DNA of 64,000 nt from the sequence record NC_052661.1. One strand, written 5' to 3'. How positions within the stretch are numbered: the stretch's first letter is position 1; each line of letters opens with the position of its first letter. Below, piece after piece: positions 1 to 12,162 of this stretch. The translations under genes were made by a program, and so were the position numbers. A model generated the notes under the pieces. It made no database searches and was not told the origin of the DNA. It worked only from the letters and a program-made list of their open reading frames with translations. Origin of the DNA: Escherichia phage ukendt.

Positions 1-183
1 AGCATTTTCATTTTCTTTGTCAACCCATTCTTCATAATTAGGCCATACATGAATCTCTACTCTACTTACAATATCTTCCATTCGCACAGTCCCAATGAAA
101 TACTCTTTGAGACTGCGCATAATGAAAGCTTCTCTCTCACGCCAATAATTTTCTATGACTTGAGAGGCAAGCTCGTCGATCAT
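1..183 (-). CDS. hypothetical protein, partial (runs off window start)
   Basis: Open minus-strand frame from ATG at 183 (MIDELASQVIENYW...) with no stop before position 1. Confidence 0.35.
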   Translation of the reverse strand, partial: MIDELASQVIENYWREREAFIMRSLKEYFIGTVRMEDIVSRVEIHVWPNYEEWVDKENENA

Positions 184-974
184 TTTTTAGCACCTACTTT
201 AACAACCCACTCTCCGAACTCTTCAGATAAGAGTTTGTCATAAAGCTCTGAATCTGTCAAGTCTAAATCTTTAATGCCAATAAAACCAACATTATCATAA
301 GCATTTGCCAGTTCTTTCAGGAAGCCAAACTTCTCATTACCAACGCCAACCATGAACCAATAAATAGGTTTATTCTTATTCTCTTCGATAAGACGACGAA
401 CAGCACTAGGATCACCATTCTCACCATCAGTCTGGAAGAATACAACACCAGGGGTAACGTCAGCACCTGGTTCAGATACAGCTACAACTTTTTCACGCTC
501 TACAGACACTGTTTCAGTTTTACCAAGCAGACGATTAAAGAAGCCTTTCTTTGGAGCCTCCTCTTGTACCACTTGTTTAGTGGTAATATATTTAGTAACA
601 GTGCCGAAATACTCATCGTAGATATCCGCCATTACAGGGGCGTAATTTGTTCCACCTCCGATACGAACATTACGCATACATTTACCAACATAGTCATCGT
701 AAACATCTGCTGTTGCTGGAGTAAGCTCTTGGGAACTCGTATTGAAGGCCCACATATCAATTTGTTGATTATCGTCGAACAGCATACCAAAAGGAAGCAG
801 TTTACCTACAAAATCACTCACTACCCCACTAGAATATAGACCATGCATACTACCAGAAATATCTAGAGCACATGCTACACGAAGAACAATCTTACCTTCG
901 TTCAGGTTCTTATTCTTTTTCAGAGAGAAAGCAAGGTTTTCTTGACGTTTTTTCAGGCTGATTTTCTCGGACAT
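180..974 (-). CDS. vWA-domain protein (TerY-like)
   Basis: 264 aa; MIDAS-like DISGSM motif near N-terminus. Confidence 0.5.
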   Translation of the reverse strand: MSEKISLKKRQENLAFSLKKNKNLNEGKIVLRVACALDISGSMHGLYSSGVVSDFVGKLLPFGMLFDDNQQIDMWAFNTSSQELTPATADVYDDYVGKCMRNVRIGGGTNYAPVMADIYDEYFGTVTKYITTKQVVQEEAPKKGFFNRLLGKTETVSVEREKVVAVSEPGADVTPGVVFFQTDGENGDPSAVRRLIEENKNKPIYWFMVGVGNEKFGFLKELANAYDNVGFIGIKDLDLTDSELYDKLLSEEFGEWVVKVGAKK

Positions 975-975
975 A

Positions 976-1320
976 TTATTTCTCCTTCTTAAGTGTAATA
1001 TTGGTAACTTCTAAATCTACTTCCACCATATTTGTATCTGGTGGGATGCAATGAGTATAGCCTCGTTGTGCTAGTGATCCATTAATACAGATCGCACTGT
1101 TTGTGGAATTTTTAATGAACACCAAGTTACGGTAGGTATCCAACCCTGCGTCTTCATAGGCATCATAATACATGAATGTGGCCCCTACGTCAAGATCTTC
1201 GAAAGCAATAGGTAAATCCTGACTTTTTTCTTCTTGAATATTGAATCTAAACACGCATACCTCCTCTACCAATTTTGAAGCCCAAATCGTAAGCTTCCTT
1301 AGTGATCTTTTGTAACTCAC
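976..1320 (-). CDS. hypothetical protein
   Basis: 114 aa ORF co-oriented in gene-dense minus block. Confidence 0.45.
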   Translation of the reverse strand: MSYKRSLRKLTIWASKLVEEVCVFRFNIQEEKSQDLPIAFEDLDVGATFMYYDAYEDAGLDTYRNLVFIKNSTNSAICINGSLAQRGYTHCIPPDTNMVEVDLEVTNITLKKEK

Positions 1321-1810
1321 TTATAGGAAGTGTTACAAGAGGATCATCTTCTTCAATTTCCATCTTGTCATCTTCTGTTTCAATGAGAGTATTATGCACT
1401 TTGTGATAAGGGTTGTCAACACGTTTAAACTTATTCTTTTCTGTGCTGAAAAAACAATCTGGATCTTCTTCACCATCACCCCAACCTTGATTAGGATCTC
1501 CGTCAGATTGTTCTGTAGGGATTTCACCTGTAAAGTACTCTTCCAGCACCATAGCAATACCGTCTCTTGGATTTGAGGAATGCATTAAATCACAAACCTT
1601 ACCCCAATCCGTAGCCCATTCGAACCGTTCACGAACGCCATTTTCACCCTCTTTTCCAGAGAAAACACAACCATAACTATCATAGTTGCCATACATCTCT
1701 TCAATAACAACACCGTCCTTCAAAAGAAAGAGGTAGCAAGGTGATCCGTCGAAAGAAGTAGAAAGGGCAGCTTTGCCCGATTCTTTGCACAAAAAGCTAA
1801 AACAACCCAT
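1247..1810 (-). CDS. hypothetical acidic protein
   Basis: 187 aa ORF, Asp/Glu-rich C-terminal half; overlaps next gene by 74 nt. Confidence 0.45.
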   Translation of the reverse strand: MGCFSFLCKESGKAALSTSFDGSPCYLFLLKDGVVIEEMYGNYDSYGCVFSGKEGENGVRERFEWATDWGKVCDLMHSSNPRDGIAMVLEEYFTGEIPTEQSDGDPNQGWGDGEEDPDCFFSTEKNKFKRVDNPYHKVHNTLIETEDDKMEIEEDDPLVTLPISELQKITKEAYDLGFKIGRGGMRV

Positions 1811-2013
1811 TACAAACCCTCCTTCAGATTATCAAGAGCTACAGTGGTTTCACAAGAGTCTCCATAAGTTTTATGATGTTCCAGAAAAGCTTCGGGTCCA
1901 CCCCAGTCATTATCTTGTGTATTCCAGCCATCAATAAAAGCATCTTCAATGATTGTGATCAGTTCTTGTCGGGTTAACTGGATAATATTAGGATCGTTAT
2001 CGTAGTTAAACAT
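1810..2013 (-). CDS. hypothetical protein
   Basis: 67 aa ORF, start overlaps upstream stop. Confidence 0.5.
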   Translation of the reverse strand: MFNYDNDPNIIQLTRQELITIIEDAFIDGWNTQDNDWGGPEAFLEHHKTYGDSCETTVALDNLKEGL

Positions 2014-2179
2014 CTTCTTCCTCCTCTAAAATATGGAACCCGTAATTACAATAATCCTGAAAGGTTTCGTGCGCAAGATCTTCTATATCCTCTTGAGACA
2101 TATCATCTTCAATTTCGATATCCACAACCTCATTGCATCCACACCAAGCAGTTTCAATATTCACTCGTAATATTTTCAT
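2006..2179 (-). CDS. hypothetical small protein
   Basis: 57 aa ORF not in track; ATG at 2179 overlaps stop of upstream gene (TAATG), acidic C-terminus. Confidence 0.3.
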   Translation of the reverse strand: MKILRVNIETAWCGCNEVVDIEIEDDMSQEDIEDLAHETFQDYCNYGFHILEEEEDV

Positions 2180-2379
2180 TACTCCTCCTCCTCCTCATTG
2201 AAGTCAATATCTGCAAGGAGTTCGAATTTACGGAAGTTACGACAACCTTCATAAATATAACAATCACGACAAACTGCTAGAACACTTGGGGGATATATAC
2301 CTCCCATCGGTGCGAATCGTTTTTCGTCATCATAACGGACACCAATGTCTTCATCAATTATATAGATACGGATTCTCAT
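2179..2379 (-). CDS. hypothetical protein
   Basis: 66 aa ORF ending in EEEEE. Confidence 0.45.
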   Translation of the reverse strand: MRIRIYIIDEDIGVRYDDEKRFAPMGGIYPPSVLAVCRDCYIYEGCRNFRKFELLADIDFNEEEEE

Positions 2380-3488
2380 TTACCAAGCCCTCGTTTCACA
2401 GCAGCTACCATCCCGTCTTCCAGAGATTGAACTTCATTAATATAATCAACACGAGCAGCACGGGCTTCCGTATTGATGCGGTTAGTTTCTTCCAACATCT
2501 TAACCAAGTTTTCCTGATCGTGACGCAGAGTTTCAATATCCAACACTTGACGGTTAGCCAGTGCTGCTGCTTCGATCTGATTCTGTGTGGCAAGATCGCT
2601 ACCCAGTTTAATTGCCAGGTTAAATTCATCAAGAACGTTATTCTGCGTCTCTGCTGCTTTCATTTGACGTAAGCTCTCGATATACATTGAGAAGTTAGCA
2701 GAGTAAGCAGGAATAACATTATTTACTATGTTACGCGCAGATCGCATTAAGCTTGCAGAAACTTTTTGCATACCTTGTACACGCGGTCCCATTTGGACAC
2801 ACAGTAGGCGCAATGCTTTTAAATCTGCAATACGAATCTCCAGAAGATCCAAAGTATCCCGGATCACTTGTCGCTGTTCTACTGCATCTTCTGGAAGAGC
2901 AGCCAAAGCTTGTTCTTCTTTTTCATAGGTTGCTGTTAGAAGCTGCATATCTCGGTTCAAACTTGCAGCATATTGTCCAATAGCTTGATGTAGCTTTTCA
3001 AGATATACCAAGGAATCTTCTTCTTTGCGAATATCCATTTGAAGGTTCTTTACCAACTCTTCAATACGGTTATTAACATTATCAAACTCCCCGAACAGGT
3101 CTTCTTTCATACCCATAACTTTTTTAATGAGTTTAGTAATACCTTTGCTTTGTTTAATAGAGTTTGGATCAAGTTGTTTTGCCTGTTTAATCAAAGCTGT
3201 GAGTCGTTCACTCATCTGATCGCCTTGATTACTACGTTGATGTTTTAATACCTCGGCATTCAAGGAACGCAAGGTTGTTCCTGCCTCTGCCCCAATCTCT
3301 TCGATCTCTTGTCGGGTCATAGAAGGCAAAACTGGAACTTCTTGCGGTGCTGCTGGTGCGTAAACAGGACTGGCATCTAACACGCTTGGAGCGAATACAG
3401 ATTTACTTGCATCTGTTGTTGCAGCAAATACGCTCATTTCAGGCTTCTTCTGACCACCAGTAGCTGCTTTTAAAAATGGACTTGTCAT
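2376..3488 (-). CDS. TelA-like (toxic anion resistance family) coiled-coil protein
   Basis: 370 aa, long heptad-rich helical regions, Ala/Pro-rich N-terminus; family call from overall resemblance only. Confidence 0.4.
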   Translation of the reverse strand: MTSPFLKAATGGQKKPEMSVFAATTDASKSVFAPSVLDASPVYAPAAPQEVPVLPSMTRQEIEEIGAEAGTTLRSLNAEVLKHQRSNQGDQMSERLTALIKQAKQLDPNSIKQSKGITKLIKKVMGMKEDLFGEFDNVNNRIEELVKNLQMDIRKEEDSLVYLEKLHQAIGQYAASLNRDMQLLTATYEKEEQALAALPEDAVEQRQVIRDTLDLLEIRIADLKALRLLCVQMGPRVQGMQKVSASLMRSARNIVNNVIPAYSANFSMYIESLRQMKAAETQNNVLDEFNLAIKLGSDLATQNQIEAAALANRQVLDIETLRHDQENLVKMLEETNRINTEARAARVDYINEVQSLEDGMVAAVKRGLGK

Positions 3489-4075
3489 TCTTCATTCTCC
3501 TCTTCTGCATCTCTTATATATGGTGAAACACCGTACTCTTTAGCTACTTTAACCCAATCGTCCCATTTATACAACCATAATTTTCCTTCGGTCCCTTCTT
3601 TATCTGATTTCAACCACATATTAGGTTGCTTACCTGGGTACATGCGATTAGGTTTACGATTATAACCTCTAACACATCTTGTCGCAAACCTATCTACCAG
3701 AACAAGAACATATTTATACTCGTGGTTCAACGGCTCTTTGGAAGTGGCTTTAGGATTAGCCCCTAATTCTGCTGCCAGTTTTTGCCAATGAGCACCGTGC
3801 CTACTAAACTTACCCATACAACCATCAATAGCATGAGCAATTTCGTGCTTCATTGTATCCACGATCATATCTCTTGTGGAGTTCTTATGCAAGTGCCAAT
3901 TTACAACAACAATTTTATCTCGGTAGTTGCACCAACCGAAAGAGTTATTCACTTTGTTTCTAACACAAGCTTTATATCCTGCTTCACGTAACATGTTGTA
4001 GTAAACAGGAAAATCTTCTTTTATTTCCTGCATCACTTCCCACCACAAGAGTTGCAAGTCTCTCTCGGTATGCAT
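3485..4075 (-). CDS. SprT-like zinc metallopeptidase
   Basis: 196 aa; HEIAH zinc-binding motif. Confidence 0.55.
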   Translation of the reverse strand: MHTERDLQLLWWEVMQEIKEDFPVYYNMLREAGYKACVRNKVNNSFGWCNYRDKIVVVNWHLHKNSTRDMIVDTMKHEIAHAIDGCMGKFSRHGAHWQKLAAELGANPKATSKEPLNHEYKYVLVLVDRFATRCVRGYNRKPNRMYPGKQPNMWLKSDKEGTEGKLWLYKWDDWVKVAKEYGVSPYIRDAEEENEE

Positions 4076-4078
4076 AAC

Positions 4079-4672
4079 TTACACCTTAAAAGCGAAATGC
4101 GTGGTCGTGGCTTCAAAATCAGGGCCAGATAAACTTGCACTGAAATCTGAAATATTTGTAATTAAAAAGCTTTTATACATACCTAACACAGCCACGCTTT
4201 CAATATCTTCTACTAACATTTCAATCATGTTAGAAACATGGCTGAACGTATAGTTTTGTTTTTTGATGGTGTAGAAAGAAAGACTCCCACCTGCTGTATA
4301 AGATACCTCTTCAAAATCTTTAATCGTATATTGTGTGCCATCAGTAAAGAAAATGGTAGCTTTATTAGTAGCACGTTTCTTGTTTTTTGGTCCTTTTTTA
4401 CGTTTACTGCGAGTAGGCAAACCGTTTGGAAATACTGTAGCTACAAATTCTTCAGGAGAAACCTCCTTACCGAAATCATAACCGTAAGAAACAGCGTCTA
4501 TAAACTCGTCGTCTTCATTTTTAAAATAATGAAAATAGGGCCAATTTGAGAGATTATCGAGCATCTTATGCTCATCCACAGCAGAGAACGTATCCCTCAA
4601 AGCACGTGTGATTTGCAAAGCATTAGGCAAACTTTTAACACCTGTAATGGAAGTACGAATAGAAATTGTCAT
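4079..4672 (-). CDS. hypothetical protein
   Basis: 197 aa ORF with basic patch RSKRKKGPKNKKR. Confidence 0.5.
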   Translation of the reverse strand: MTISIRTSITGVKSLPNALQITRALRDTFSAVDEHKMLDNLSNWPYFHYFKNEDDEFIDAVSYGYDFGKEVSPEEFVATVFPNGLPTRSKRKKGPKNKKRATNKATIFFTDGTQYTIKDFEEVSYTAGGSLSFYTIKKQNYTFSHVSNMIEMLVEDIESVAVLGMYKSFLITNISDFSASLSGPDFEATTTHFAFKV

Positions 4673-4686
4673 TGTTTTTCTCCTTA

Positions 4687-5124
4687 TTAACGTCGCTTGC
4701 TACGAGATGAACTCTTTTTACTTAAAGGGCTATTGTAAGATTTACGAGTTGTATAGCTACTATTTGTTTTAAAAGTTTGTCTCGGATTTTCATAAGTTTT
4801 TATCTCTTGTTTAGGCTTACCATAAAAATTAGTTTTCGGTTTAGGTGTATTATAATGCTTATTAATAATCGTTCTGTTATCGTTATAATCCCCACTGTTA
4901 CGATTACTACCACCACTCATCATATGCCCTAACAACATACCTGTAGCAAACTCACCAACACCGCTACTACTAGAACCGCCACCATTGTTGATAATAGTTG
5001 TATCTCCGTCAGATCCTTGTTGAGCGTATTGTTGAGGAGGTTGTTGGTATTGTGCAGGATTTGTTTCATCCTCGCAAGCTGTTAAAAAGATACAACCAAT
5101 TAAAATCAGGGCTAGTTTTTTCAT
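4687..5124 (-). CDS. lipoprotein, Gly/Ser-rich
   Basis: Start placed at internal Met giving signal peptide MKKLALILIGCIFLTAC with lipobox; RBS GAGGAA upstream. Confidence 0.55.
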   Translation of the reverse strand: MKKLALILIGCIFLTACEDETNPAQYQQPPQQYAQQGSDGDTTIINNGGGSSSSGVGEFATGMLLGHMMSGGSNRNSGDYNDNRTIINKHYNTPKPKTNFYGKPKQEIKTYENPRQTFKTNSSYTTRKSYNSPLSKKSSSRSKRR

Positions 5125-5311
5125 ATTTGCTTTCCTCATTTTGACTATTAATACATCTGTGTTTGAAATCTCCAGAGAAGCAATAAAGTTGCTCTCCATC
5201 TCGGTATAAACTCACTTTACTGCCGTTGATTACGCTTGTCAATACAAAAATTACAACAAACAACCCTATTGCAAAACAAATATTTTCAAACACAATCAAC
5301 AAGTATTTCAT
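5066..5311 (-). CDS. hypothetical membrane protein
   Basis: 81 aa ORF with hydrophobic N-terminus; start overlaps upstream stop. Confidence 0.35.
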   Translation of the reverse strand: MKYLLIVFENICFAIGLFVVIFVLTSVINGSKVSLYRDGEQLYCFSGDFKHRCINSQNEESKYEKTSPDFNWLYLFNSLRG

Positions 5312-5658
5312 TTTAAAAATACCTCATCATCAGTTTCATTATCCCAGAAGAACAAATCCCAACCATTCGGATCATTCCATTTGGCTGCTGGAGAAGTCCA
5401 TATTTGTTCGATATCAATATTCAAAACTTCACCGTTTCGTTTTGAAACAGCTTTAGTTAATTCCCAACGAGATACAGGCTCTACTTCCCCTGAACCACTC
5501 CCACAACAAGCTACCACGTTAGGAGGCAAATTAATTGGATCTTTGGTCACGATCATAACGCTTACCCCAGGGTAAACTTTTGAAAGATAATCTAAAACGT
5601 AATCCACATCACCAGATAAATCCCAAACAAGTTCTTGAATTTCATCAAAATTATTCAT
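5308..5658 (-). CDS. hypothetical protein
   Basis: 116 aa ORF, RBS AGGAGA upstream. Confidence 0.5.
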   Translation of the reverse strand: MNNFDEIQELVWDLSGDVDYVLDYLSKVYPGVSVMIVTKDPINLPPNVVACCGSGSGEVEPVSRWELTKAVSKRNGEVLNIDIEQIWTSPAAKWNDPNGWDLFFWDNETDDEVFLK

Positions 5659-5669
5659 AAGTCTCTCCT

Positions 5670-5696
5670 ATAAAATAGCCTCCCGAAGGAGGCTCA
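5670..5696 (-). terminator. rho-independent terminator after terC
   Basis: AGCCTCC-cgaa-GGAGGCT hairpin followed by a U-rich tract on the minus strand. Confidence 0.5.
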
Positions 5697-5700
5697 TCTA

Positions 5701-6675
5701 TTAAACAGCAGCTTCTTCTTTTTCAGGGAAGATAAAGCTTGCAATAACACCAAGAGCTAATGTGCCTAGAACAATCATCAGACTTACGTTAGGGGAAATA
5801 TCATGCGGGAGGAATGACCACTTGGCATGAAGTGTTTCACCGAACGGGTGATACATAAGTTTAGCACCGACAAATACCAGAACCACAGCAACAGCTTTCT
5901 CTAAGTGAACCAGATATTTCACAGCTACACTTAACACAAAGAAAAGTGCACGTAAACCAAGAACAGCCATCAGCATTGCAGAATAAACTAGCAGAGGTTC
6001 TTGTGTCACACCAATAACAGCCGGAACTGAATCAAAAGAGAACACAATATCTGTAAGCTCAATAACAAACACACAAAGAAGAGCAGGAGTTGCATATTTA
6101 ATACCATTCTTAATGGTAATGAACTTTTCACCATCCAGTGCGTTGTGCACAGGCAGAACTTTACCTACTAAACGAACAGCCCAATGTTTAGAGTAATCAA
6201 TATCTTCTTCTTCGTCACCACCTTTGATAATAGCAACGGCAGACCAAGCTACAATCAGACCGAACAACACTTGGACCGACCAATGCAGGTTAAACAAAGC
6301 TGTCCCTGCTGCAACAAAAACACCTCGGAAGACAATGGCACCTGCAATACCCCAAAGTAAAATCTTATGTTGGAGATGTGTGCTCTTAATTCCAAAGCTT
6401 GCAAAAATTGCCATGAACACCATTAGGTTATCTACAGAAAGACTCTTTTCCAACACATATCCACTTAGGAAAAGTGCGGCAAACTCTTTACCATGCTCTA
6501 CCCAAATGAATGCGTAATATCCTAAAGCTAAAGCAATCCAAAAAACAGACCAAAGCAAAGCAGATTTAATTCCAATTTCTTTATTCTCTTTATGACCAAA
6601 GAAATCGATACCAATAGACAATGCCAAAATACCAACTAAAACAACTACATCAATAATTGGGAAACCGAGTTGCAT
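5701..6675 (-). CDS. terC: TerC-family integral membrane protein
   Basis: 324 aa multi-pass membrane protein with EKSLSVDN and ELTDIVFSFDSVPAV motifs typical of TerC. Confidence 0.7.
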   Translation of the reverse strand: MQLGFPIIDVVVLVGILALSIGIDFFGHKENKEIGIKSALLWSVFWIALALGYYAFIWVEHGKEFAALFLSGYVLEKSLSVDNLMVFMAIFASFGIKSTHLQHKILLWGIAGAIVFRGVFVAAGTALFNLHWSVQVLFGLIVAWSAVAIIKGGDEEEDIDYSKHWAVRLVGKVLPVHNALDGEKFITIKNGIKYATPALLCVFVIELTDIVFSFDSVPAVIGVTQEPLLVYSAMLMAVLGLRALFFVLSVAVKYLVHLEKAVAVVLVFVGAKLMYHPFGETLHAKWSFLPHDISPNVSLMIVLGTLALGVIASFIFPEKEEAAV

Positions 6676-6692
6676 TCTTTTCTCCTCTCTTT

Positions 6693-6751
6693 GCGGGGAA
6701 CTATTCCCCGCTTCATGTGATATATCTTACTCTTTTTAAGAACTATGTCAA
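6693..6751 (-). promoter_or_regulatory. cassette-type promoter + 5' hairpin driving terC
   Basis: On the minus strand: TTGACA, 16 nt, TAAGAT, then ACATGAAGCGGGGAATAGTTCCCCGC hairpin, RBS, ATG at 6675. Confidence 0.55.
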
Positions 6752-6754
6752 CAC

Positions 6755-6976
6755 TTATTTTGTTGAATGAGAGGAAAAGATTCCTCGTAATACCGCCAGA
6801 ATAAACGAAACACAAACCACGGTCCAGAAGGTTACTGGGACAGTGATATCTGCATGACCCATAACTTCAGCAACATAGTTGTAAGCCAGCAACAGTAACC
6901 AAGCTGGAATCAAACTAAGCATAAAAGCAATAACAAAAAAGCTTACCACTGCAACAATACCTGCAAAAACACCCAT
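6755..6976 (-). CDS. small membrane protein
   Basis: 73 aa, two hydrophobic segments. Confidence 0.5.
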   Translation of the reverse strand: MGVFAGIVAVVSFFVIAFMLSLIPAWLLLLAYNYVAEVMGHADITVPVTFWTVVCVSFILAVLRGIFSSHSTK

Positions 6977-6988
6977 ACTAATCTCCTC

Positions 6989-7462
6989 TTAAAGTTTATA
7001 AATAGTCACATCGTGACCTGTTTTTACTAAAGTTTCTTCAATCATCACTTGGATGATAGCCCAATTACCTCCAGCATATCCAGCGCCAATCATAGGTAAG
7101 CCGATCTTACATTTTTGGTCACGGAGAAGCAAATCATTAGCCATAGCTATTAGTGCATCGTAAAGTGCATCATAGTCCAACTGACGACCTTTAGCATTGT
7201 ATCCGTAACGGTATTGTCCGTATAGATTATATACCAAAGGGTCTGATTGTTCGTCTGGCAACCCTAAACTAAAAGAACCTAACTTACTTTGATCACCAGC
7301 CATTGTGTCTAAATCTGCCGCATATGCATAAGGGAATGCTCGTTTAATTTGCGGAGCAATTCCTGCTCCCATATTACACATACAATTGCAACAATGAGCA
7401 ATAACAGTTACTTCTCCTGCTTTAGCGGCATCAATAAGATTACCTGTTTTCATTTTAAGCAT
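6989..7462 (-). CDS. macro-domain protein (ADP-ribose binding/hydrolase)
   Basis: 157 aa; VIAHCCNCMCNMGAGIA and IGLPMIGAGYAGG match the two macro-domain Gly-rich loops. Confidence 0.6.
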   Translation of the reverse strand: MLKMKTGNLIDAAKAGEVTVIAHCCNCMCNMGAGIAPQIKRAFPYAYAADLDTMAGDQSKLGSFSLGLPDEQSDPLVYNLYGQYRYGYNAKGRQLDYDALYDALIAMANDLLLRDQKCKIGLPMIGAGYAGGNWAIIQVMIEETLVKTGHDVTIYKL

Positions 7463-7476
7463 TTTTTAGCTCCTTA

Positions 7477-8304
7477 TTACAGAATATGTTGTTTTGTGTA
7501 ACGATCCAAGAATTCAAAGTTTTCAGCATACTTTGAAATTCGGTTGTAACCTTCTCCCAAACATCCAAAGAAAAGTTGCTCTACATAGTAGTGTGGCAAT
7601 TGGCTAAGAATGATTTTGAAGTCTTCGTGATTTTGGCCCATAAGATACTTAATAGGACGAACAAGGCACTGTGCATCACGTTCTTCATTAATCATTTTAA
7701 CAAACGCTTCTGGTGTATTGATGTAGTTAAAATTCAGTTTAGCTTCAGTATCTGCTTGATTACCTTCATATTTTGCAAAATACAAGAAGTAAACATCATT
7801 TTTAACTTGATTTTCATCAAGAATCTCAATCAGTTTGTCTTCATGAGTTCCGGTGATATTTACATCATCAATGAACACAAGCTTCTTATCACCCCAGAAT
7901 TCTTTGTTGCAGTAGAATGTATCCCCATCAATAAGTTTCTTACGACTAGCTTTATCCAAGAAACCATAATCGTTGATATAGCTAACTTTACGATGAATAA
8001 TATCCAGTTCTGCTGAACGACCTTGATCATATTGTGCTTGCAACATATTAAAGTAATTAATAAAATGATCTGTCATCATTGTTGCAGCATTATGCACATG
8101 GTTATAAGGAGAAGGGATGATAACAAATTGTTCCCCAATATGTTTCATTGCCACTTGAGCAAAAAACTGAAGTGCCAATTCTTTACCCATACGACGCGCA
8201 GCCTGGTTACTACCAAATTTCAATTTTGAATAGTCTTTGATATCAAAAGTAGCAGTTTCCAGGTCATCAAATTTATTTGCAAAAATTTGAGTTTGATTAC
8301 GCAT
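7477..8304 (-). CDS. type I phosphoribosyltransferase-fold protein
   Basis: 275 aa; PRPP-binding loop KLVFIDDVNITGT. Confidence 0.5.
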   Translation of the reverse strand: MRNQTQIFANKFDDLETATFDIKDYSKLKFGSNQAARRMGKELALQFFAQVAMKHIGEQFVIIPSPYNHVHNAATMMTDHFINYFNMLQAQYDQGRSAELDIIHRKVSYINDYGFLDKASRKKLIDGDTFYCNKEFWGDKKLVFIDDVNITGTHEDKLIEILDENQVKNDVYFLYFAKYEGNQADTEAKLNFNYINTPEAFVKMINEERDAQCLVRPIKYLMGQNHEDFKIILSQLPHYYVEQLFFGCLGEGYNRISKYAENFEFLDRYTKQHIL

Positions 8305-8953
8305 TTACAATTTCTCCTCTTTTAAGTTTCTCTAGTAAGTCGTTAGGGTTCTTAATATGACAGAAGTTAAATCCTAAGTCAACACATTTTCCATCATATT
8401 CTTCACTATCGCCTACGTGCAATACTTCGTGCCCTAACAGAGGGACCGGAGAATACGTGAGCGTGCGAGCAAAGAATCGCGGATCTGGTTTACAAAGTAA
8501 AGCTTCATCCGAGAAATGGGTGAACTCAAAACAATTCCAACTATCAAACTTACAAGCACGACGCAGGATATCCCCTGATATGAAGTTGGTATTGCTCTTA
8601 ATACTCAAATCATAACGCCCCGAAAGATACAGCAAGTACATCGGCAGATCCACGGCTACGTGTGGTGGAAACTTAAGGAACCACTGTTCACACTCGAAAC
8701 GAAGCTTTGCAGACTTCCAAGGCGTTATCCCAAGTTCAGAACCAAGTCTTTCCCAAGCGTATGCTGCACACTCGGCTTTGCCTTGAAGTGCTGCATTATC
8801 CAGTTCCTTTTTGATCTTCTTATAAGCTGCTCTTGCTTCCACTTCCGTAATATCTCCATATTTTGCGATAGTCCAGGCTCGCATGTCTGCGTAATTGGAG
8901 TTTGCTGTGATCAGTGTGTTCCATACATCAAAAGAGATATGTTTAATAGTCAT
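8297..8953 (-). CDS. HAD-superfamily hydrolase
   Basis: 218 aa; N-terminal FDVWNTL (DxD-type) and C-terminal HVGDS motifs. Confidence 0.5.
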   Translation of the reverse strand: MTIKHISFDVWNTLITANSNYADMRAWTIAKYGDITEVEARAAYKKIKKELDNAALQGKAECAAYAWERLGSELGITPWKSAKLRFECEQWFLKFPPHVAVDLPMYLLYLSGRYDLSIKSNTNFISGDILRRACKFDSWNCFEFTHFSDEALLCKPDPRFFARTLTYSPVPLLGHEVLHVGDSEEYDGKCVDLGFNFCHIKNPNDLLEKLKRGEIVNA

Positions 8954-8954
8954 A

Positions 8955-9560
8955 TTAAGCCCACCATGCGTCTAAGTTAAGATTACTGTCTACCACAACT
9001 TGTTCTATGTGGTAGCCTTTTATCTGTATCCCACTGTTCAAGAGCATATCATATGCTTCATTGAAACGCAACTTGTCTTCTGCGGAATATAAGCGAGCAT
9101 TATAAAATCGGTAATCAATTTCTTCAGCATTAGAAGAAATACGGAAGAAGTTTGTTTCTACTTCGGGATCACTTGCTGAAGTCTTAATGTGAACTTCTCC
9201 ATAATTTTCTTTGCTTAGATCCATGAAAAGAACACAGGCAACATGTTTAAACATTCGTTCCAGTTTGTAACGAACAACATTGAAACCTGCATTCTCAAGT
9301 TTTTCTACACACTGCAACATTAAAGTAGTGTCGAGATCGCTTTGATACTTTGTTAACATACGATCACGTTGAGACTTTGTATCCCGATGTAAATCAATTG
9401 TTGTGCATTTGGCACCAATAATCTTAGCTGCTTTCATCAACTCTTCAGAACTAACGTTAGATAAAGTAAGATGAAAATGGGCTTTCCACACTTTTTTAGC
9501 AGGGACACCAAAAGATTTATCCCCACTATTCGGCATGTTGACTACTACACTATGTTGCAT
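8955..9560 (-). CDS. hypothetical protein
   Basis: 201 aa ORF. Confidence 0.5.
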   Translation of the reverse strand: MQHSVVVNMPNSGDKSFGVPAKKVWKAHFHLTLSNVSSEELMKAAKIIGAKCTTIDLHRDTKSQRDRMLTKYQSDLDTTLMLQCVEKLENAGFNVVRYKLERMFKHVACVLFMDLSKENYGEVHIKTSASDPEVETNFFRISSNAEEIDYRFYNARLYSAEDKLRFNEAYDMLLNSGIQIKGYHIEQVVVDSNLNLDAWWA

Positions 9561-9575
9561 TACTTATCTCCTCAC

Positions 9576-9800
9576 TTAAAATGGAAGTCTTTGAAGTTCA
9601 TCTCCTCCGATATCAAGTAATTTAGCAACATCTCGATCAGAAAGCAACTCTTTTCTTTGTAAAATATCCACAAGGGTTGCAAGAATGTCCTTAACGTCCC
9701 GATCACTGTTCTTCAAAAGTTCTCCTGCCGTCCCTACCCTATCTCCTACAGCAAAATATGTAACCATAAAACCTCCTACGCTAATCTGATTGCCAACCAC
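9576..9800 (-). CDS. hypothetical protein
   Basis: 74 aa ORF overlapping nrdG 3' end by 20 nt. Confidence 0.3.
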   Translation of the reverse strand: MVGNQISVGGFMVTYFAVGDRVGTAGELLKNSDRDVKDILATLVDILQRKELLSDRDVAKLLDIGGDELQRLPF

Positions 9801-10251
9801 TCGCCGTTTTTGTCCATAATCTTTGATTATCTGACCCTCTGAAAGGTTTTGTGGTTGGATTGTTTATTTCATACTTTCCGTCTACAATAATGTCAACAAG
9901 ATTTTTAATATACAAAGGCACTTCCTCAAAAGTATATCCTGTATACACCATTATATCTTTGCTTGACCCATAAACGTCTCTAACCTTTTCTATAAGGTTT
10001 TTAACATTGTAAATATTCTGCGGATCTAATGGTTCTCCTCCTAAAATTGTTAAACCTTTTACAAACGGTCTTGACAAATCTTTTAAAACTTGCTCTACAT
10101 TTTCGTTAGTGAACGGTTTCCCATAAGAATAAGACCAGGCTTTCTGGTTAAAACAGCCACGACAACCGTGGCTACAACCACTAACCCAGAGGGAGCACCT
10201 AACTCCCTCACCATTAATAAGATCTACAGGTTCATATCCTGCAAAATTCAA
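9781..10251 (-). CDS. nrdG: anaerobic ribonucleotide reductase activating protein (radical SAM)
   Basis: 156 aa; CSHGCRGC cysteine cluster; immediately downstream of nrdD with overlapping stop/start. Confidence 0.75.
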   Translation of the reverse strand: MNFAGYEPVDLINGEGVRCSLWVSGCSHGCRGCFNQKAWSYSYGKPFTNENVEQVLKDLSRPFVKGLTILGGEPLDPQNIYNVKNLIEKVRDVYGSSKDIMVYTGYTFEEVPLYIKNLVDIIVDGKYEINNPTTKPFRGSDNQRLWTKTASGWQSD

Positions 10252-12062
10252 AGATGTTTCTCCCTTTGCAAAACTTCCTGCATTTTACCTTTGTTATAAG
10301 GCCGTGAATTAGGGGCAGAAAGATACCCTGATACACGTCTAACTACAGAAATAGTTTCTTCTTCATGGTTGCCACAATTAGGACACTCAAACCCTTTAGC
10401 CGTTGCCTTAAATTCTCCATGAAAACCACACTTAAAGCATTGATCCACGGGCTGATTAATACCAAAATAGTGAATATGTTCATAAGCGTAGTCTACTAAA
10501 GTCTCCAAAGCTTCTAAGTTATTCTTTAAGTTTGGTGTTTCGACATAACTTATGTTACCACCATTGCTAATCTGTGCAAAACCTGCTTCATAATCCCATT
10601 TTTCAAAAGGATTTGTTACCAACCATACAGGTTGATGAAAAGAATTAGTAAGATAATCTCTTTCTACCAGACCTGGATATTTTTCATTTAAAGCTGTTGC
10701 AAATTTATAGCACAAGGATTCTGCTGGAGTTCCATAAAGACTAAATGCCAACTTAGATCGTTCTTTAAACACAGCACACACATCTTTCATATGTTGCAGA
10801 ATGTTTTTACCTAGTGCCTTTTTATCTTTTTCCTCTGGATAAAGGATTTCCAAAGCTTCGGCAAGACCTACATAACCAATACTAATAGAAGCATAACCAC
10901 CTTCAAACAAAGCACCAATTTCATCGTTGGCATTTAAACGCGCTAAAGCCCCTTCCATGAAAAGAATAGGGTTTTCAGATGCTTTGGTATGTCTGATACG
11001 GTTTACACGTAGCATGTGAGCATCGTAGGCTATCTCCATATGTTTATTAAGAAGATCGGTGAAAGATTCTCCTTTACTTCTCGCTTCCGCAGCAATCAGA
11101 GGCAAGTTGATAGAAACTACTCCAAGGTTGAATCGTCCATCATATTTTTCTCCTTGTTCGGTGGCATAGTACGACAAAAAGGAACGACAACCCATACTCG
11201 TAACAGTACCATCTGCTGATCCCGTAACTTCTTTGTTCAAAGGAACAGAAATAAAGTCTGGATAAATACGATCAGCACAACATGCCAAAGCTTGTTGCTT
11301 AAGGTCATAGTTAGGATCACTAGGTTTCATGTTAACGCCTTCTTGTAAAAAGAAAATAACTTTAGGGAATACAGGCGTTACATGATCTTTGCCTAGACCA
11401 TTACTATGCACTTTAAGATAGTTAGCTGTGATCATTCTGCCAAAAACAGAGGTATCCAGACCCATACTGATTGTAATAAAAGGAGATTGTCCATTTACAC
11501 TCATTAAAGTATTAACCTGATACAAGAGAGTTTGCATAGCATCATATACATCTTGTTCGGTCATTTCCAGGGCTTCTTTCCTTGCATAACAGCCGTAGCG
11601 ACGTTTGGTTATCTCCATGTTTTTAAGGAAACTAGCTTCAACATAAGGACTAAGACCTTTATCAATGTGCGCACACGTTTGACCTCCATACTGACTGGAG
11701 GCAACAGCTTGAATGATTTGAGTTAGCACTGTAGTAGCTACCCCAATAGATTTTGGTTTTTCTATCTGTGCGGCTCCGATCTTAAAACCATTCTCTAACA
11801 TATCTTGATAATTAACAAGACAACAGTTTGTAAGAGGAGAGAGCAGATAATCCAAGTCGTGAATATGCCCAAAACCTTCTGTATGCCATTCTGACAAGTT
11901 TTTTGGCAGTATCTGTGTCATTGCCATATGTTTGCTTAAAATCCCCGCCAAGAGATCCCTATGCGTGTTAACGAGGTGGGAAGGTTTATTTGCATTCTCT
12001 CTAGTGTATGTTTCTGAAGTGCGATCTAAAAAAGAAAAAACATCTTGGTACAAATCTTTCAT
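10248..12062 (-). CDS. nrdD: anaerobic ribonucleoside-triphosphate reductase (class III)
   Basis: 604 aa; C-terminal glycine-radical motif RRVSGYL preceded by CxxC..CxxC zinc ribbon. Confidence 0.85.
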   Translation of the reverse strand: MKDLYQDVFSFLDRTSETYTRENANKPSHLVNTHRDLLAGILSKHMAMTQILPKNLSEWHTEGFGHIHDLDYLLSPLTNCCLVNYQDMLENGFKIGAAQIEKPKSIGVATTVLTQIIQAVASSQYGGQTCAHIDKGLSPYVEASFLKNMEITKRRYGCYARKEALEMTEQDVYDAMQTLLYQVNTLMSVNGQSPFITISMGLDTSVFGRMITANYLKVHSNGLGKDHVTPVFPKVIFFLQEGVNMKPSDPNYDLKQQALACCADRIYPDFISVPLNKEVTGSADGTVTSMGCRSFLSYYATEQGEKYDGRFNLGVVSINLPLIAAEARSKGESFTDLLNKHMEIAYDAHMLRVNRIRHTKASENPILFMEGALARLNANDEIGALFEGGYASISIGYVGLAEALEILYPEEKDKKALGKNILQHMKDVCAVFKERSKLAFSLYGTPAESLCYKFATALNEKYPGLVERDYLTNSFHQPVWLVTNPFEKWDYEAGFAQISNGGNISYVETPNLKNNLEALETLVDYAYEHIHYFGINQPVDQCFKCGFHGEFKATAKGFECPNCGNHEEETISVVRRVSGYLSAPNSRPYNKGKMQEVLQREKHL

Positions 12063-12133
12063 TATTAATCCTTATTTTGTGAGTAGAACTATTATTCTAC
12101 CTCTTCCAACCGAAAAAAGCTTTGAGGAAAATC

Positions 12134-12160
12134 AAAAAAGGCGCAAACTGCGCCTTTAAG
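12134..12160 (-). terminator. rho-independent terminator
   Basis: AAAGGCGC-5 nt-GCGCCTTT hairpin followed by TTTTGATTTT on the minus strand, just past the stop at 12163. Confidence 0.6.
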
Positions 12161-12162
12161 TT

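What the first reader, a model, noticed from the sequence alone, without database searches (positions are those of the whole stretch)
180..9560. Ter-like stress module carried by a phage: vWA, TelA-like, TerC, PRTase, HAD
A vWA-domain protein, a TelA-like coiled-coil protein, a TerC membrane protein, a type I phosphoribosyltransferase-fold protein and a HAD hydrolase are all co-oriented within 9 kb, interspersed with a SprT-like peptidase, a lipoprotein and a macro-domain protein. TerC/TelA/vWA with PRTase and HAD partners recur in bacterial ter-type loci thought to make or process a nucleotide-like metabolite. Finding the set on a virulent phage suggests the phage manipulates a host membrane-stress or nucleotide-signalling pathway.
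Basis: partly seen in the sequence, partly recalled or inferred. Interest (0 to 1): 0.6.

Follow-up and report, generated by a model that had tools for sequence, protein, structure and literature searches.

The report
Phage-borne Ter stress/exclusion gene cluster
A known group of large E. coli phages (phAPEC8-like) carries a real set of "tellurite-resistance-type" (Ter) membrane-stress genes plus a two-enzyme small-molecule cassette; this has already been described in phages, and its function is still untested.

Summary
Profile searches confirm, all on the minus strand: vWA-TerF-like (180-974), TelA (2376-3488), SprT-like zincin (3485-4075), TerC/Alx (5701-6675), macrodomain (6989-7462), Ter-associated ComF-like PRTase (7477-8304) and a HAD-fold protein (8297-8953). 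A TerD gene lies about 0.5 kb beyond the window start in near-identical genomes.

The window is a Phapecoctavirus (97-99% identical to more than 57 deposited genomes), and several of those records already annotate these genes. The cluster is syntenic across Stephanstirmvirinae and under purifying selection. Compact versions (TerC, TerD, vWA, HAD, PRTase) recur in unrelated large phage contigs, so it is a functional module rather than a chance assembly.

Phage Ter systems, including PRTase+HAD, were described by Iyer et al. 2021 and Bonilla et al. 2021, who proposed a role in competition with other phages.

What I add:
- The overlapping HAD→PRTase pair is an invariant two-gene cassette that also occurs without any Ter genes.
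- Its HAD has an invariant Trp where phosphatases have the Asp+2 general acid.
- TerC is Alx-type, with its own σ70-like promoter and a terminator-like hairpin.
- The macrodomain (DarG/TARG1 class) and the 201-aa protein (PADLOC 'AbiEi' profiles) are probably separate counter-defence genes.

Function remains inferred. Interest is low to moderate.

The parts
180..974 (-). vWA domain protein of the TerF/TerY type (264 aa), MIDAS motif intact
   Evidence: Pfam PF10138 E=1.6e-37. It is 66-74% identical in phi92-like and other Stephanstirmvirinae. dN/dS is 0.065 against L035.
976..1320 (-). Small conserved ORF (g114; the true start is probably internal). It is a paralogue of the off-window ORF g89 on the other side of the vWA gene.
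   Evidence: phrog_11278 E=4.8e-50, covering residues 24-114. It is 35% identical to g89.
1247..1810 (-). Conserved 187-aa protein of unknown function between TelA and vWA. Present in phAPEC8- and phi92-like phages, absent in FKP3-like phages.
   Evidence: phrog_14928; no Pfam family; 75-80% identity, dN/dS about 0.12.
1810..2379 (-). Three small overlapping or abutting ORFs (67, 57 and 66 aa) that link TelA to g187
   Evidence: ORF list; PHROG families of unknown function; a DUF7167 hit just below threshold for the 57-aa ORF.
2376..3488 (-). TelA-family coiled-coil protein (370 aa). Its start overlaps the SprT stop by 4 nt.
   Evidence: Pfam PF05816 E=3.2e-33; phrog_5890 'tellurite resistance'. 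It is 78-90% identical across the subfamily, with dN/dS 0.036. 223 phage records hold a homologue.
3485..4075 (-). SprT-like zincin metallopeptidase (HEIAH motif), translationally coupled to TelA. Optional within the subfamily.
   Evidence: Pfam PF10263 E=4.2e-9. No orthologue in phi92; present in FKP3, L034 and L035.
4079..4672 (-). 197-aa protein of unknown function, fast-evolving
   Evidence: phrog_27550; no Pfam family; 40-45% identity to subfamily relatives.
4687..5199 (-). Predicted lipoprotein. Lipobox LTAC after MKKLALILIGCIF, so the likely start is near 5124. Conserved in this position across the subfamily at about 35% identity.
   Evidence: Sequence reading; phrog_21570/32479; tblastn hits at the same position in L005, L006 and L032-L036.
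5308..5658 (-). 116-aa protein of unknown function
   Evidence: phrog_27498; no Pfam family.
5677..5694 (-). Terminator-like GC hairpin (AGCCTCCttcgGGAGGCT followed by ATTTTAT), 6 nt after the TerC stop codon
   Evidence: Terminator scan; sequence.
5701..6675 (-). TerC/Alx-type integral membrane protein (324 aa)
   Evidence: Pfam PF03741 E=3.2e-40. NCBIfam TIGR03718 318.8 bits against a 246.4 cut-off. It is 51-55% identical to chromosomal TerC/Alx proteins of Pasteurellaceae and others. In phage FKP3 a DUF475/TerC-related protein occupies the corresponding place between the macrodomain gene and the lipoprotein.
6724..6751 (-). σ70-like promoter TTGACA-16-TAAGAT upstream of TerC, followed by a perfect 8-bp hairpin in the 5' UTR (about 6688-6706)
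   Evidence: Promoter scan; sequence. The corresponding gap between the g73 homologue and TerC is annotated 'putative host dependent promoter' in the phAPEC8 record. No Mn riboswitch was found (Rfam).
6755..6976 (-). 73-aa hydrophobic small membrane protein, conserved between the macrodomain gene and TerC
   Evidence: ORF translation; phrog_16065; 42-78% identity in subfamily loci.
6989..7462 (-). Stand-alone macrodomain of the TARG1/DarG/SCO6735 class. Probably a separate ADP-ribose-removing (counter-defence) gene.
   Evidence: Pfam PF01661 E=6.9e-5. PDB 5e3b E=8.7e-13, TARG1 1.8e-6, DarG macrodomain 5m31 2.8e-6. PADLOC DarG 3.7e-10. NCBIfam antitoxin_DarG 1.6e-8, below its cut-off.
7477..8304 (-). 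Ter-associated ComF-like type I phosphoribosyltransferase (275 aa) with an invariant PRPP loop DDVxITGTHE and a C-terminal helical domain
8297..8953 (-). HAD-fold protein (218 aa) whose stop overlaps the PRTase start by 8 nt. Motif I is SxDxWxTL, with Trp in place of the Asp+2 general acid; motifs II-IV are intact.
   Evidence: Pfam PF00702 E=3.6e-4; NCBIfam HAD-IA families, all below cut-off; alignment A3 with invariant D9, W11, T13, S120, N121, K155, G181, D182, D187. A HAD gene lies directly upstream of the PRTase in essentially every locus examined.
8955..9560 (-). 201-aa protein with no Pfam family. Two ferredoxin-like repeats; invariant HxHxT...ExHxK...RFYNxR. Optional in the subfamily. 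Probably an independent accessory or counter-defence gene.

Best explanation
This is the Ter-type gene module of phAPEC8-like (Phapecoctavirus, Stephanstirmvirinae) myoviruses. It has been inherited since the ancestor of that subfamily and lies in the long leftward replication and nucleotide-metabolism gene block.

Shown here:
- The module consists of a TerC/Alx-type inner-membrane protein, a TelA coiled-coil protein, a MIDAS-bearing vWA (TerF-type) protein and a TerD protein (the TerD gene is just off-window).
- It also includes a translationally coupled HAD→ComF-like-PRTase pair.
- All are under purifying selection, and the set recurs in unrelated large phages.

Inferred (most likely mechanism):
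- During infection TerC, apparently transcribed early from a host-type promoter, sits in the inner membrane.
- TerD, vWA and TelA form a metal-dependent (Ca2+/Mn2+) sub-membrane assembly with it.
- The PRTase uses PRPP to make a phosphoribosylated small molecule that the HAD partner processes. This acts as a ligand or signal for the assembly.
- The net effect reproduces the classical plasmid ter phenotypes: resistance to other phages and to pore-forming colicins. The infected cell's membrane and proton-motive force are protected, superinfecting phages are excluded, and premature lysis is avoided until the phage's own lysis programme fires.

The SprT-like peptidase, the lipoprotein, the DarG-like macrodomain and the 201-aa 'AbiEi-profile' protein are lineage-specific additions. 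The last two are most likely separate counter-defence genes.

For: Evidence that it is one module:
- Gene order HAD-PRTase-Macro-g73-TerC-lipoprotein-TelA-vWA-TerD is conserved in phi92-like phages. In FKP3-like phages the order is the same, with a DUF475/TerC-related protein in TerC's place. Protein identity is 49-86%.
- In FKP3 a paralogous DUF475/TerC-clan protein occupies the place of TerC.
- Compact clusters TerC-x-TerD-x-vWA-HAD-PRTase occur in unrelated phage-like contigs L030 and L031 and in L044 and L045. L041 holds TelA-vWA-HAD-PRTase-TerD.
- Bacterial HAD-PRTase_3 pairs sit next to TerD×2 (Bacteroidales, Tannerella) or vWA plus TerD×2 (Pedococcus).

Evidence that the genes are functional: dN/dS 0.04-0.12 against L035; catalytic motifs intact.

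Expression: a σ70-like promoter, annotated as host-dependent in the phAPEC8 record, and a terminator-like hairpin flank TerC.

Functional precedent:
- R478 ter confers phage inhibition and colicin resistance (Whelan et al. 1995, cited in PMC8386662).
- Iyer et al. 2021 (PMC7824862, section 3.4.10) propose that phage Ter systems act against superinfecting phages.
- TerC-family proteins handle Mn2+ (PMC10550928; PMC10197570).
Against: No experiment exists for any phage Ter gene; literature searches found none.

The set is incomplete relative to bacterial Ter systems:
- No TerB, ATP-grasp or TIM-barrel lyase was detected among the ORFs.
- There is only one TerD. The phi92 record has a second, similar-sized ORF beside it (gp171), but that gave no TerD Pfam hit.

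Other points against:
- No PADLOC defence model matches the vWA, TelA, TerC, TerD or PRTase proteins.
- The HAD-PRTase pair occurs with no Ter gene within 10 kb in 7 of 13 distant viral loci, in XaC1 and in a Rhizobium and a Brevundimonas phage, and with none annotated nearby on Rhizobiaceae plasmids. It does not strictly need the membrane parts.
- TerC has its own promoter and terminator and is a close relative (51-55%) of housekeeping Alx proteins, so it could act alone in metal export.
- The HAD lacks the Asp+2 general acid, so 'nucleotide phosphatase' is uncertain.
- ComF-type PRTases may bind nucleic acid rather than make nucleotides (own knowledge of H. pylori ComFC work).
Confidence: 0.5

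Rival explanations
1. There are two or more independent units that merely share an accessory region. On this view the HAD→PRTase_3 pair, perhaps together with the neighbouring macrodomain and the 201-aa protein, is a self-contained nucleotide, PRPP or ADP-ribose-related cassette. It could serve counter-defence or manipulate the nucleotide pool, and it would have nothing mechanistic to do with TerC, TelA, vWA or TerD, which form a separate membrane unit.
For: - The pair is the only invariant element. A HAD gene lies directly upstream of the PRTase in 13 of 13 distant IMG/VR loci. The same holds in XaC1, in a Rhizobium and a Brevundimonas phage and on Rhizobiaceae plasmids. The plasmid loci annotate no Ter gene nearby, and 7 of the 13 viral loci have none within 10 kb.
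- vWA and TelA form their own adjacent pair in phiPsa374-like Pseudomonas phages: the vWA and TelA hits abut in that record, and no Pseudomonas record is named among the PRTase hits.
- A terminator-like hairpin after TerC splits the window cluster into two transcription units.
- The neighbours look like counter-defence genes: a DarG-like macrodomain and a 201-aa protein matching 'AbiEi' profiles, whose distant homologue abuts Acb1 and lies near a NADAR gene.
- L030 places the pair beside NMN-transporter and NadR-like genes.
Against: - The PRTase belongs to the Pfam family defined by Ter association (PF15610).
- Bacterial pairs sit beside TerD and vWA genes in three distant phyla.
- Six of 13 distant viral loci, plus L030 and L031, keep vWA, TerD or TerC within 10 kb, often immediately adjacent.
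- Rhizobium phages that lack adjacent Ter genes still encode a vWA-TerF-like protein elsewhere in the genome.
Confidence: 0.25
2. It is a metal-homeostasis auxiliary module. On this view the Alx-type TerC exports or allocates Mn2+ (or Ca2+). TerD and vWA would act as metal-binding accessories that tune cytoplasmic metal levels for phage enzymes, such as the adjacent ribonucleotide reductases and nucleases. No role in excluding competitors is needed.
For: - TerC passes the TerC/Alx 'metal homeostasis' NCBIfam cut-off and is 51-55% identical to chromosomal Alx-type proteins.
- TerC-family proteins export Mn2+ or metalate exoenzymes (PMC10550928, PMC10197570).
- The vWA protein has a complete MIDAS metal site (sequence).
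- The cluster abuts NrdD/NrdG and another RNR gene.
- TerC has its own early host-type promoter.
Against: - It does not explain TelA or the PRTase-HAD pair.
- The Mn2+-sensing riboswitch that controls cellular alx is absent.
- NrdD/G is a glycyl-radical/Fe-S enzyme, not a Mn enzyme (established knowledge).
- Many phages carry vWA/TelA or PRTase/HAD without a TerC within 10 kb.
Confidence: 0.12
3. It is a host-benefit 'resistance' auxiliary gene set: the phage confers tellurite or xenobiotic tolerance on the infected cell, as suggested in some phage-genome papers.
For: PHROG and GenBank annotation as 'tellurite resistance'. The suggestion is made in PMC11256456 and, as a secondary option, in PMC7824862.
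Against: These phages are described and used as lytic agents (PMC13096147), so a benefit to the host is short-lived. TelA, TerC and TerD names derive from a laboratory phenotype. TerB, TerZ, TerA and TerE are not detected. Tellurite is rare in the sewage and gut habitats from which these phages were isolated.
Confidence: 0.05

Closest known systems
Phage-encoded Ter systems described by Iyer, Anantharaman, Krishnan, Burroughs & Aravind 2021 (Viruses 13:63; e.g. Acinetobacter jumbo phage vB_AbaM_ME3, Caulobacter jumbo phages)
   Same: The component families are the same: TerD, TerC, TerF-type vWA and TelA, plus the 'signal-biosynthesis' PRTase and HAD. The authors explicitly include 'certain other related smaller tailed phages' and propose use against superinfecting phages.
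   Different: This is a ~150-kb non-jumbo E. coli myovirus lineage. Here the module is stretched over about 10 kb. It is interleaved with a SprT-like peptidase, a lipoprotein, a macrodomain and small ORFs, and it is split by a terminator-like hairpin after TerC.
terC / terF-vWA / terD×2 / telA cluster of virulent Klebsiella myovirus ϕKp34 (Bonilla et al. 2021, DNA Res 28:dsab013)
   Same: A virulent enterobacterial myovirus with a clustered terC, vWA, terD and telA subset, interpreted as possibly antiviral.
   Different: That report does not mention a PRTase/HAD pair. ϕKp34 is a different lineage (36% GC, 248 CDS). I did not compare the sequences directly.
Bacterial Ter systems (Anantharaman, Iyer & Aravind 2012, Mol Biosyst 8:3142) and the terZABCDEF operon of IncHI2 plasmid R478 / E. 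coli O157
   Same: The shared hub is TerC + TerD + vWA + TelA, with a linked PRTase/HAD 'nucleoside-like metabolite' module. The classical phenotypes are tellurite resistance, phage inhibition and colicin resistance.
   Different: No TerB, TerZ/A/E paralogue set, ATP-grasp or TIM-barrel lyase was detected. tblastn with the phage PRTase found no enterobacterial ter plasmid; only Rhizobiaceae and one Hymenobacter plasmid matched. The phage PRTase is therefore not the enterobacterial ter-island enzyme.
E. coli Alx / Bacillus MeeF-MeeY (TerC-family Mn2+ exporters and metalation factors)
   Same: The phage TerC passes the TerC/Alx subfamily cut-off and is 51-55% identical to chromosomal members.
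   Different: There is no yybP-ykoY/PRE-type riboswitch upstream. It has a σ70-like promoter and a simple 5' hairpin instead.
H. pylori ComF(C) competence protein (PDB 7p0h) and type I PRTases
   Different: Only 146 of 275 residues align, at 9% identity. The phage protein has a distinct helical C-terminal domain and an obligate HAD partner.

Membership tests
Ter system (sensu Anantharaman et al. 2012) | TerD-domain protein(s) | tested here: met
   PF02342 E=7.7e-28 for L001 7067-7669 in the 98.6%-identical phage EF1-1. The gene lies just outside the window start; no TerD is in the window itself.
Ter system (sensu Anantharaman et al. 2012) | TerC integral membrane protein | tested here: met
   PF03741 E=3.2e-40; TIGR03718 above cut-off.
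Ter system (sensu Anantharaman et al. 2012) | TelA and TerF/TerY-type vWA proteins | tested here: met
   PF05816 E=3.2e-33 and PF10138 E=1.6e-37.
Ter system (sensu Anantharaman et al. 2012) | TerB domain protein | tested here: not met
   No TerB hit among the 19 ORFs scanned at E<=0.01. A very divergent TerB among the unknown ORFs cannot be excluded.
Ter system (sensu Anantharaman et al. 2012) | Linked biosynthetic module: PRTase + HAD (+ ATP-grasp ligases + TIM-barrel C-C lyase) | tested here: inconclusive
   PRTase_3 (PF15610) and the HAD are present and coupled. No ATP-grasp or lyase was detected, so only the two-enzyme core is present.
Ter system (sensu Anantharaman et al. 2012) | Phenotype: tellurite resistance, phage inhibition, colicin resistance | not testable with these tools
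   Requires wet-lab assays. No published data for phage copies were found.
TerY-P anti-phage defence system (vWA TerY + PP2C phosphatase + Ser/Thr kinase) | vWA protein matching the defence-system model, with kinase and phosphatase partners | tested here: not met
   No PADLOC model hit for the vWA protein. No kinase or PP2C domain in the region.
Type I phosphoribosyltransferase | PRTase fold and PRPP-binding loop (acidic pair followed by T-G-x-T) | tested here: met
HAD-superfamily phosphomonoesterase | Motif I DxDx(T/V) with Asp+2 as general acid/base | tested here: not met
   Motif I is S-x-D-x-W-x-T-L, with Trp invariant in 13 phage and bacterial orthologues. The nucleophile Asp and motifs II (S-N), III (K-P) and IV (GDxxxD) are present, so it has the HAD fold but is not a canonical phosphatase.
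Macrodomain, TARG1/DarG class | Macro fold with sequence similarity to TARG1/DarG-type ADP-ribosyl hydrolases | tested here: met
   PF01661 above the gathering score. PDB SCO6735 8.7e-13, TARG1 1.8e-6, DarG macrodomain 2.8e-6. PADLOC DarG 3.7e-10. It is not a DarG equivalog: 34 bits against a cut-off of 250, and the C-terminal DarT-binding half is missing.
AbiEi antitoxin (AbiE type IV toxin-antitoxin / abortive infection) | Homology to AbiEi and a winged-helix DNA-binding N-terminal domain | tested here: inconclusive
   18 of 18 family members hit PADLOC 'AbiEi' profiles end to end (E 1e-12 to 1e-14). However, there is no Pfam AbiEi family hit and no PDB hit by profile. The AF2 model shows two ferredoxin-like repeats rather than a wHTH.

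The most novel reading that the evidence does not exclude
The overlapping HAD(Trp)→ComF-like PRTase pair may be an autonomous, horizontally mobile two-gene cassette. It is found in many large phages, on Rhizobiaceae plasmids and in Bacteroidales. On this reading it makes or processes a still-unknown phosphoribosyl compound by non-canonical HAD chemistry (there is no Asp+2 general acid). Alternatively, like ComF, it may act on incoming nucleic acid at the membrane. This compound or activity would be the long-missing effector or signal that explains how Ter systems block phage and colicin entry. Phages would have captured it to control the infected cell's envelope or to blunt host nucleotide-based immunity.
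Probability: 0.2. Interest if true: 0.65.

Novelty: already known. Interest (0 to 1): 0.3.

Why it matters
Ter genes are widespread in bacteria, plasmids and phages. They have been linked to phage and colicin resistance since the 1990s, yet their mechanism and the product of the associated PRTase/HAD enzymes remain unknown.

phAPEC8/phi92-like phages infect E. coli K-12 and are genetically tractable. They carry a minimal, strongly conserved Ter set, so they are a convenient system for asking what Ter proteins do.

The finding itself adds no new kind of system. Its value is as a clean test bed. The details noted here (the invariant HAD-PRTase cassette, the HAD with Trp at Asp+2, and an Alx-type TerC with a host-type promoter) sharpen the experiments.

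Tried and rejected
1. Enterobacterial origin of the module. tblastn of the PRTase against 72,556 plasmids found no IncHI2 or ter-island plasmid, only Rhizobiaceae and one Hymenobacter plasmid. The scan of one genome per species found only 21 loci, none enterobacterial apart from a mis-binned phage contig. Rejected.

2. A Mn2+ riboswitch upstream of TerC, as for cellular alx. The Rfam E-value scan of 1-12500 found nothing relevant. Rejected.

4. The 201-aa protein as part of the HAD-PRTase unit. It is absent from phi92, and its homologues in L052 and L054 are not near a PRTase. Rejected.

5. The unknown 311-402-aa proteins in the compact clusters of L030 and L031 as divergent TelA. No Pfam TelA hit at E<=0.1. 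Not supported.

6. The Ter proteins as known defence-system components. PADLOC gave no hits.

7. Published experiments on phage Ter genes. None were found; several apparent 'TelA' hits were author names or drug names.

8. Technical dead ends. The 2012 Ter paper (PMC4104200) is not held in the library. The AFDB Foldseek library was unavailable. An early script error took 'TerD' from the wrong locus and was corrected.

Full report
**What the window is.** Bases 1-10300 are 97-99% identical over their full length to more than 57 deposited genomes of phAPEC8-like E. coli myoviruses (genus Phapecoctavirus, subfamily Stephanstirmvirinae, about 150 kb). Several of those records already label genes in this stretch. 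The labels include 'TelA-like protein', 'integral membrane protein TerC', 'putative orotate phosphoribosyltransferase', 'putative phosphatase', 'VWA domain-containing protein' and 'putative stress protein'. All genes from the window start to about 21 kb are on the minus strand. GC content (37-41%) is the same inside and outside the cluster, so this is not a recent foreign insert.

| Coordinates (minus strand) | Call | Result |
|---|---|---|
| 180-974 | vWA-TerF-like, PF10138 | E=1.6e-37 |
| 2376-3488 | TelA, PF05816 | E=3.2e-33 |
| 3485-4075 | SprT-like, PF10263 | E=4.2e-9 |
| 5701-6675 | TerC, PF03741 | E=3.2e-40 |
| 6989-7462 | Macro, PF01661 | E=6.9e-5, just above the gathering score |
| 7477-8304 | PRTase_3 'ComF-like', PF15610 | E=6.1e-42 |
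| 8297-8953 | HAD | weak in Pfam; see the pair section |

- PDB macrodomains support the Macro call down to E=8.7e-13.
- PF15610, as I recall its Pfam description, was defined by its association with Ter loci.
- The predicted lipoprotein (4687-5199) has a clear lipobox.

Two things were missed:
- A 201-aa gene at 8955-9560 with no Pfam family.
- A TerD gene (PF02342, E=7.7e-28), which lies about 0.5 kb beyond the window start in the near-identical phage EF1-1. It is not in the window.

With TerD, the phage carries TerC, TerD, TelA and a TerF-type vWA protein, plus the PRTase/HAD pair.

**Is it a module or a coincidence?** Three lines of evidence say it is a module.

1. Synteny. The order is (NrdD-NrdG)-small HTH-[201 aa]-HAD-PRTase-Macro-73-aa membrane protein-TerC-lipoprotein-...-[SprT]-TelA-small ORFs-[187 aa]-vWA-TerD-endolysin.
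   - It is kept in phi92-like Justusliebigvirus, Klebsiella phage FKP3 and several IMG/VR contigs.
   - Protein identities there are only 49-86%.
   - Bracketed genes come and go.
   - In FKP3, TerC is replaced at the corresponding place by a DUF475 protein, a TerC relative. This argues that a TerC-like membrane protein is required there.
2. Purifying selection. dN/dS against the divergent relative L035 is 0.04-0.12 for vWA, TelA, TerC, PRTase, HAD, Macro, SprT and the 201-aa gene. dS is near saturation, so these values are approximate.
3. Recurrence elsewhere.
   - Unrelated phage-like contigs carry compact versions. TerC-x-TerD-x-vWA-HAD-PRTase occurs in L030 and L031 and in L044 and L045. 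TelA-vWA-HAD-PRTase-TerD occurs in L041.
   - In bacteria, the same HAD-PRTase pair sits next to two TerD genes (a Bacteroidales MAG and Tannerella) or next to vWA plus two TerD genes (Pedococcus).

**The HAD→PRTase pair.** This is the most sharply defined element.
- *Coupling.* The HAD stop overlaps the PRTase start by 8 nt here, and the two genes overlap or abut in every other lineage.
- *Where the pair occurs.* A HAD orthologue lies directly upstream of the PRTase in all of the following:
  - 13 of 13 distant viral loci;
  - Xanthomonas jumbo phage XaC1;
  - Rhizobium and Brevundimonas phages;
  - Rhizobiaceae plasmids and genome contigs.
- *Without Ter genes.* In 7 of the 13 distant viral loci there is no Ter gene within 10 kb, and the two Rhizobiaceae plasmid loci I inspected annotate none nearby. 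The pair can therefore travel and presumably work on its own. Rhizobium phages do encode a vWA-TerF-like protein elsewhere in the genome.
- *The PRTase.*
  - It keeps an invariant PRPP loop, DDVxITGTHE, and has no sequence relative in the PDB.
  - Only 146 of 275 residues align; the C-terminal helical domain is family-specific.
- *The HAD.*
  - It keeps the nucleophile Asp, motif II (S-N), motif III (K-P) and motif IV (GDxxxD).
  - The Asp+2 general acid/base of HAD phosphatases is an invariant Trp in all 13 phage and bacterial orthologues.
  - From established knowledge of the HAD superfamily (Burroughs et al. 2006), this argues against a routine nucleotide 5'-phosphatase.
  - It leaves room for chemistry on a better leaving group or a non-phosphatase reaction.

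**TerC.** It passes the NCBIfam TerC/Alx cut-off and is 51-55% identical to chromosomal 'TerC/Alx family metal homeostasis' proteins of Pasteurellaceae and other Proteobacteria. Its flanks suggest a separately controlled, probably early transcript made by host RNA polymerase (inference):
- A σ70-like promoter (TTGACA-16-TAAGAT, 6751-6724) lies upstream. The corresponding gap upstream of TerC is annotated 'putative host dependent promoter' in the phAPEC8 record.
- The 5' UTR holds a perfect 8-bp hairpin.
- A GC-rich hairpin plus a T-rich tract lies 6 nt after the stop codon (5694-5677).
- There is no Mn2+ riboswitch of the kind that controls cellular alx.

**Interspersed genes.**
- *Macrodomain.* It is of the TARG1/DarG/SCO6735 class. 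It lacks the DarT-binding half of DarG. A role in removing ADP-ribose, for example from DarT-modified DNA, is plausible but untested.
- *201-aa protein.* The evidence is mixed:
  - All 18 aligned family members match PADLOC profiles labelled 'AbiEi' end to end.
  - It has no Pfam or PDB relative.
  - Its model is two ferredoxin-like repeats with no strong structural neighbour.
  - Uncharacterised proteins of large phages and giant viruses resemble it.
  - A 36%-identical homologue in another phage contig overlaps an Acb1 (anti-CBASS) gene and lies near a NADAR gene, with no Ter gene called in that locus. Another homologue is also far from any PRTase.
  - I therefore regard it as an independent accessory gene, possibly counter-defence.
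- *SprT-like zincin.* It is translationally coupled to TelA here (4-nt overlap) but absent from phi92.
- *Lipoprotein.* It keeps its position across the subfamily at about 35% identity and could belong to the membrane unit. This is unresolved.

**What is already known.**
- Iyer et al. 2021 (PMC7824862, section 3.4.10):
[quoted passage not shown] - They proposed use against superinfecting phages.
- Bonilla et al. 2021 (PMC8386662) described a terC/terF-vWA/terD/telA cluster in the virulent Klebsiella myovirus ϕKp34 and drew the same inference.
- Other genome papers simply list 'tellurite resistance' genes in such phages.
- I found no experimental work on any phage Ter gene.

**Most likely mechanism.** Only the anatomy is shown; the steps below are inferred.
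- TerC is inserted in the inner membrane early in infection.
- TerD, the MIDAS-bearing vWA protein and TelA assemble beneath it in a metal-dependent way.
- The HAD-PRTase pair converts PRPP and an unknown acceptor into a small phosphoribosyl or nucleoside-like ligand for this assembly.
- The outcome mirrors the plasmid ter phenotypes, inhibition of other phages and resistance to pore-forming colicins (Whelan et al. 1995, cited in PMC8386662).
- That would protect membrane integrity and proton-motive force, and hence correct lysis timing, and exclude competitors during the long infection cycle of a 150-kb phage.
- I put this at about 0.5.

The main rivals are:
- The HAD-PRTase pair (± macrodomain) is an independent nucleotide-related or counter-defence cassette (0.25).
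- The set serves Mn/Ca homeostasis for phage enzymes (0.12).
- It confers xenobiotic tolerance on the host (0.05).

**Verdict.** The finding is a known feature of a known phage group. The useful new details are the following:
- The off-window TerD.
- The invariant, separable HAD(Trp)-PRTase cassette.
- The Alx-type TerC with host-type promoter and terminator-like signals.
- The likely independence of the macrodomain and the 201-aa gene.

Noticed in passing
window 8955-9560 (-); related loci L052 10001-11021, L054 10001-10549: The 201-aa protein family has no Pfam or PDB relative, yet all 18 aligned members match PADLOC 'AbiEi' profiles end to end. The AF2 model is two ferredoxin-like repeats with invariant HxHxT / ExHxK / RFYNxR. 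Structural relatives are uncharacterised proteins of large phages (ME3, LAh_8, phiM12) and giant eukaryotic viruses (Klosneuvirus, Bodo saltans virus). A distant homologue overlaps an Acb1 anti-CBASS gene and lies near a NADAR gene. It may be a new counter-defence family.
   Followed up: partly
window 8297-8953 (-); alignment A3: The HAD partner of the PRTase has an invariant Trp at the Asp+2 position of motif I (SxDxWxTL) in all phage and bacterial orthologues. Its other HAD motifs are intact. It is therefore unlikely to be a canonical phosphomonoesterase.
   Followed up: partly
window 6688-6751 and 5677-5694 (-): TerC is bracketed by a σ70-like promoter and a terminator-like hairpin. The promoter position is annotated as host-dependent in the phAPEC8 record. 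A perfect 8-bp 5'-UTR hairpin (GCGGGGAAtagTTCCCCGC) lies between promoter and start codon. No Mn riboswitch is present.
   Followed up: partly
window 6989-7462 (-): This is a stand-alone macrodomain of the DarG/TARG1/SCO6735 class, without the DarT-binding C-terminal half. It is a candidate anti-DarT (DNA de-ADP-ribosylating) factor. phi92 has a longer (238-aa) version with an extra N-terminal region.
   Followed up: partly
L006 12541-13593 (Klebsiella phage FKP3): At the place where TerC sits in other Stephanstirmvirinae, FKP3 encodes a DUF475 protein (E=2.4e-92) that also hits TerC weakly. A paralogue from the TerC clan has replaced TerC.
   Followed up: partly
window 180-9560 compared with L035 and L009: Identity within the cluster is a mosaic. 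Against L035: HAD 92%, PRTase 79%, Macro 90%, TerC 72%, TelA 90%, SprT 93%, vWA 74%, g201 76%. In L009, PRTase is 99.6% and g201 100% identical but the HAD between them is only 77%. This pattern suggests frequent allele exchange by recombination among co-circulating phages.
   Followed up: no
L001 2600-5744 (off-window, downstream of the endolysin gene): There are four consecutive glycosyltransferase genes, one with a weak hit to TET-associated glycosyltransferase (PF20691, E=0.0011, below threshold). They lie just beyond TerD and the endolysin gene. They could modify DNA or the cell surface; this was not examined.
   Followed up: no
window 976-1320 (-) and L001 7685-7954 (-): Two small paralogous ORFs (about 35% identical) flank the vWA gene. 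One is annotated 'RNA ligase' in the EF1-1 record, with no profile support.
   Followed up: no
database records matched: Records named 'Campylobacter phage B15/A110a', 'Acinetobacter phage ABPW7' and 'Pseudomonas phage PsgM04F' match this E. coli phage region closely. The first two are 98.6% identical at the nucleotide level; PsgM04F is 73-90% identical at the protein level. The host labels of the near-identical records are probably mis-assignments or contaminants.
   Followed up: no
L030 10810-14612 (metagenomic phage-like contig): In this contig the compact Ter cluster is followed by YqeY, an NMN-transporter (PnuC-like) gene and an AAA_28 (NadR-like) gene. This hints at a link between the PRTase-HAD pair and NAD/nicotinamide-riboside salvage. 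It was seen only once.
   Followed up: no
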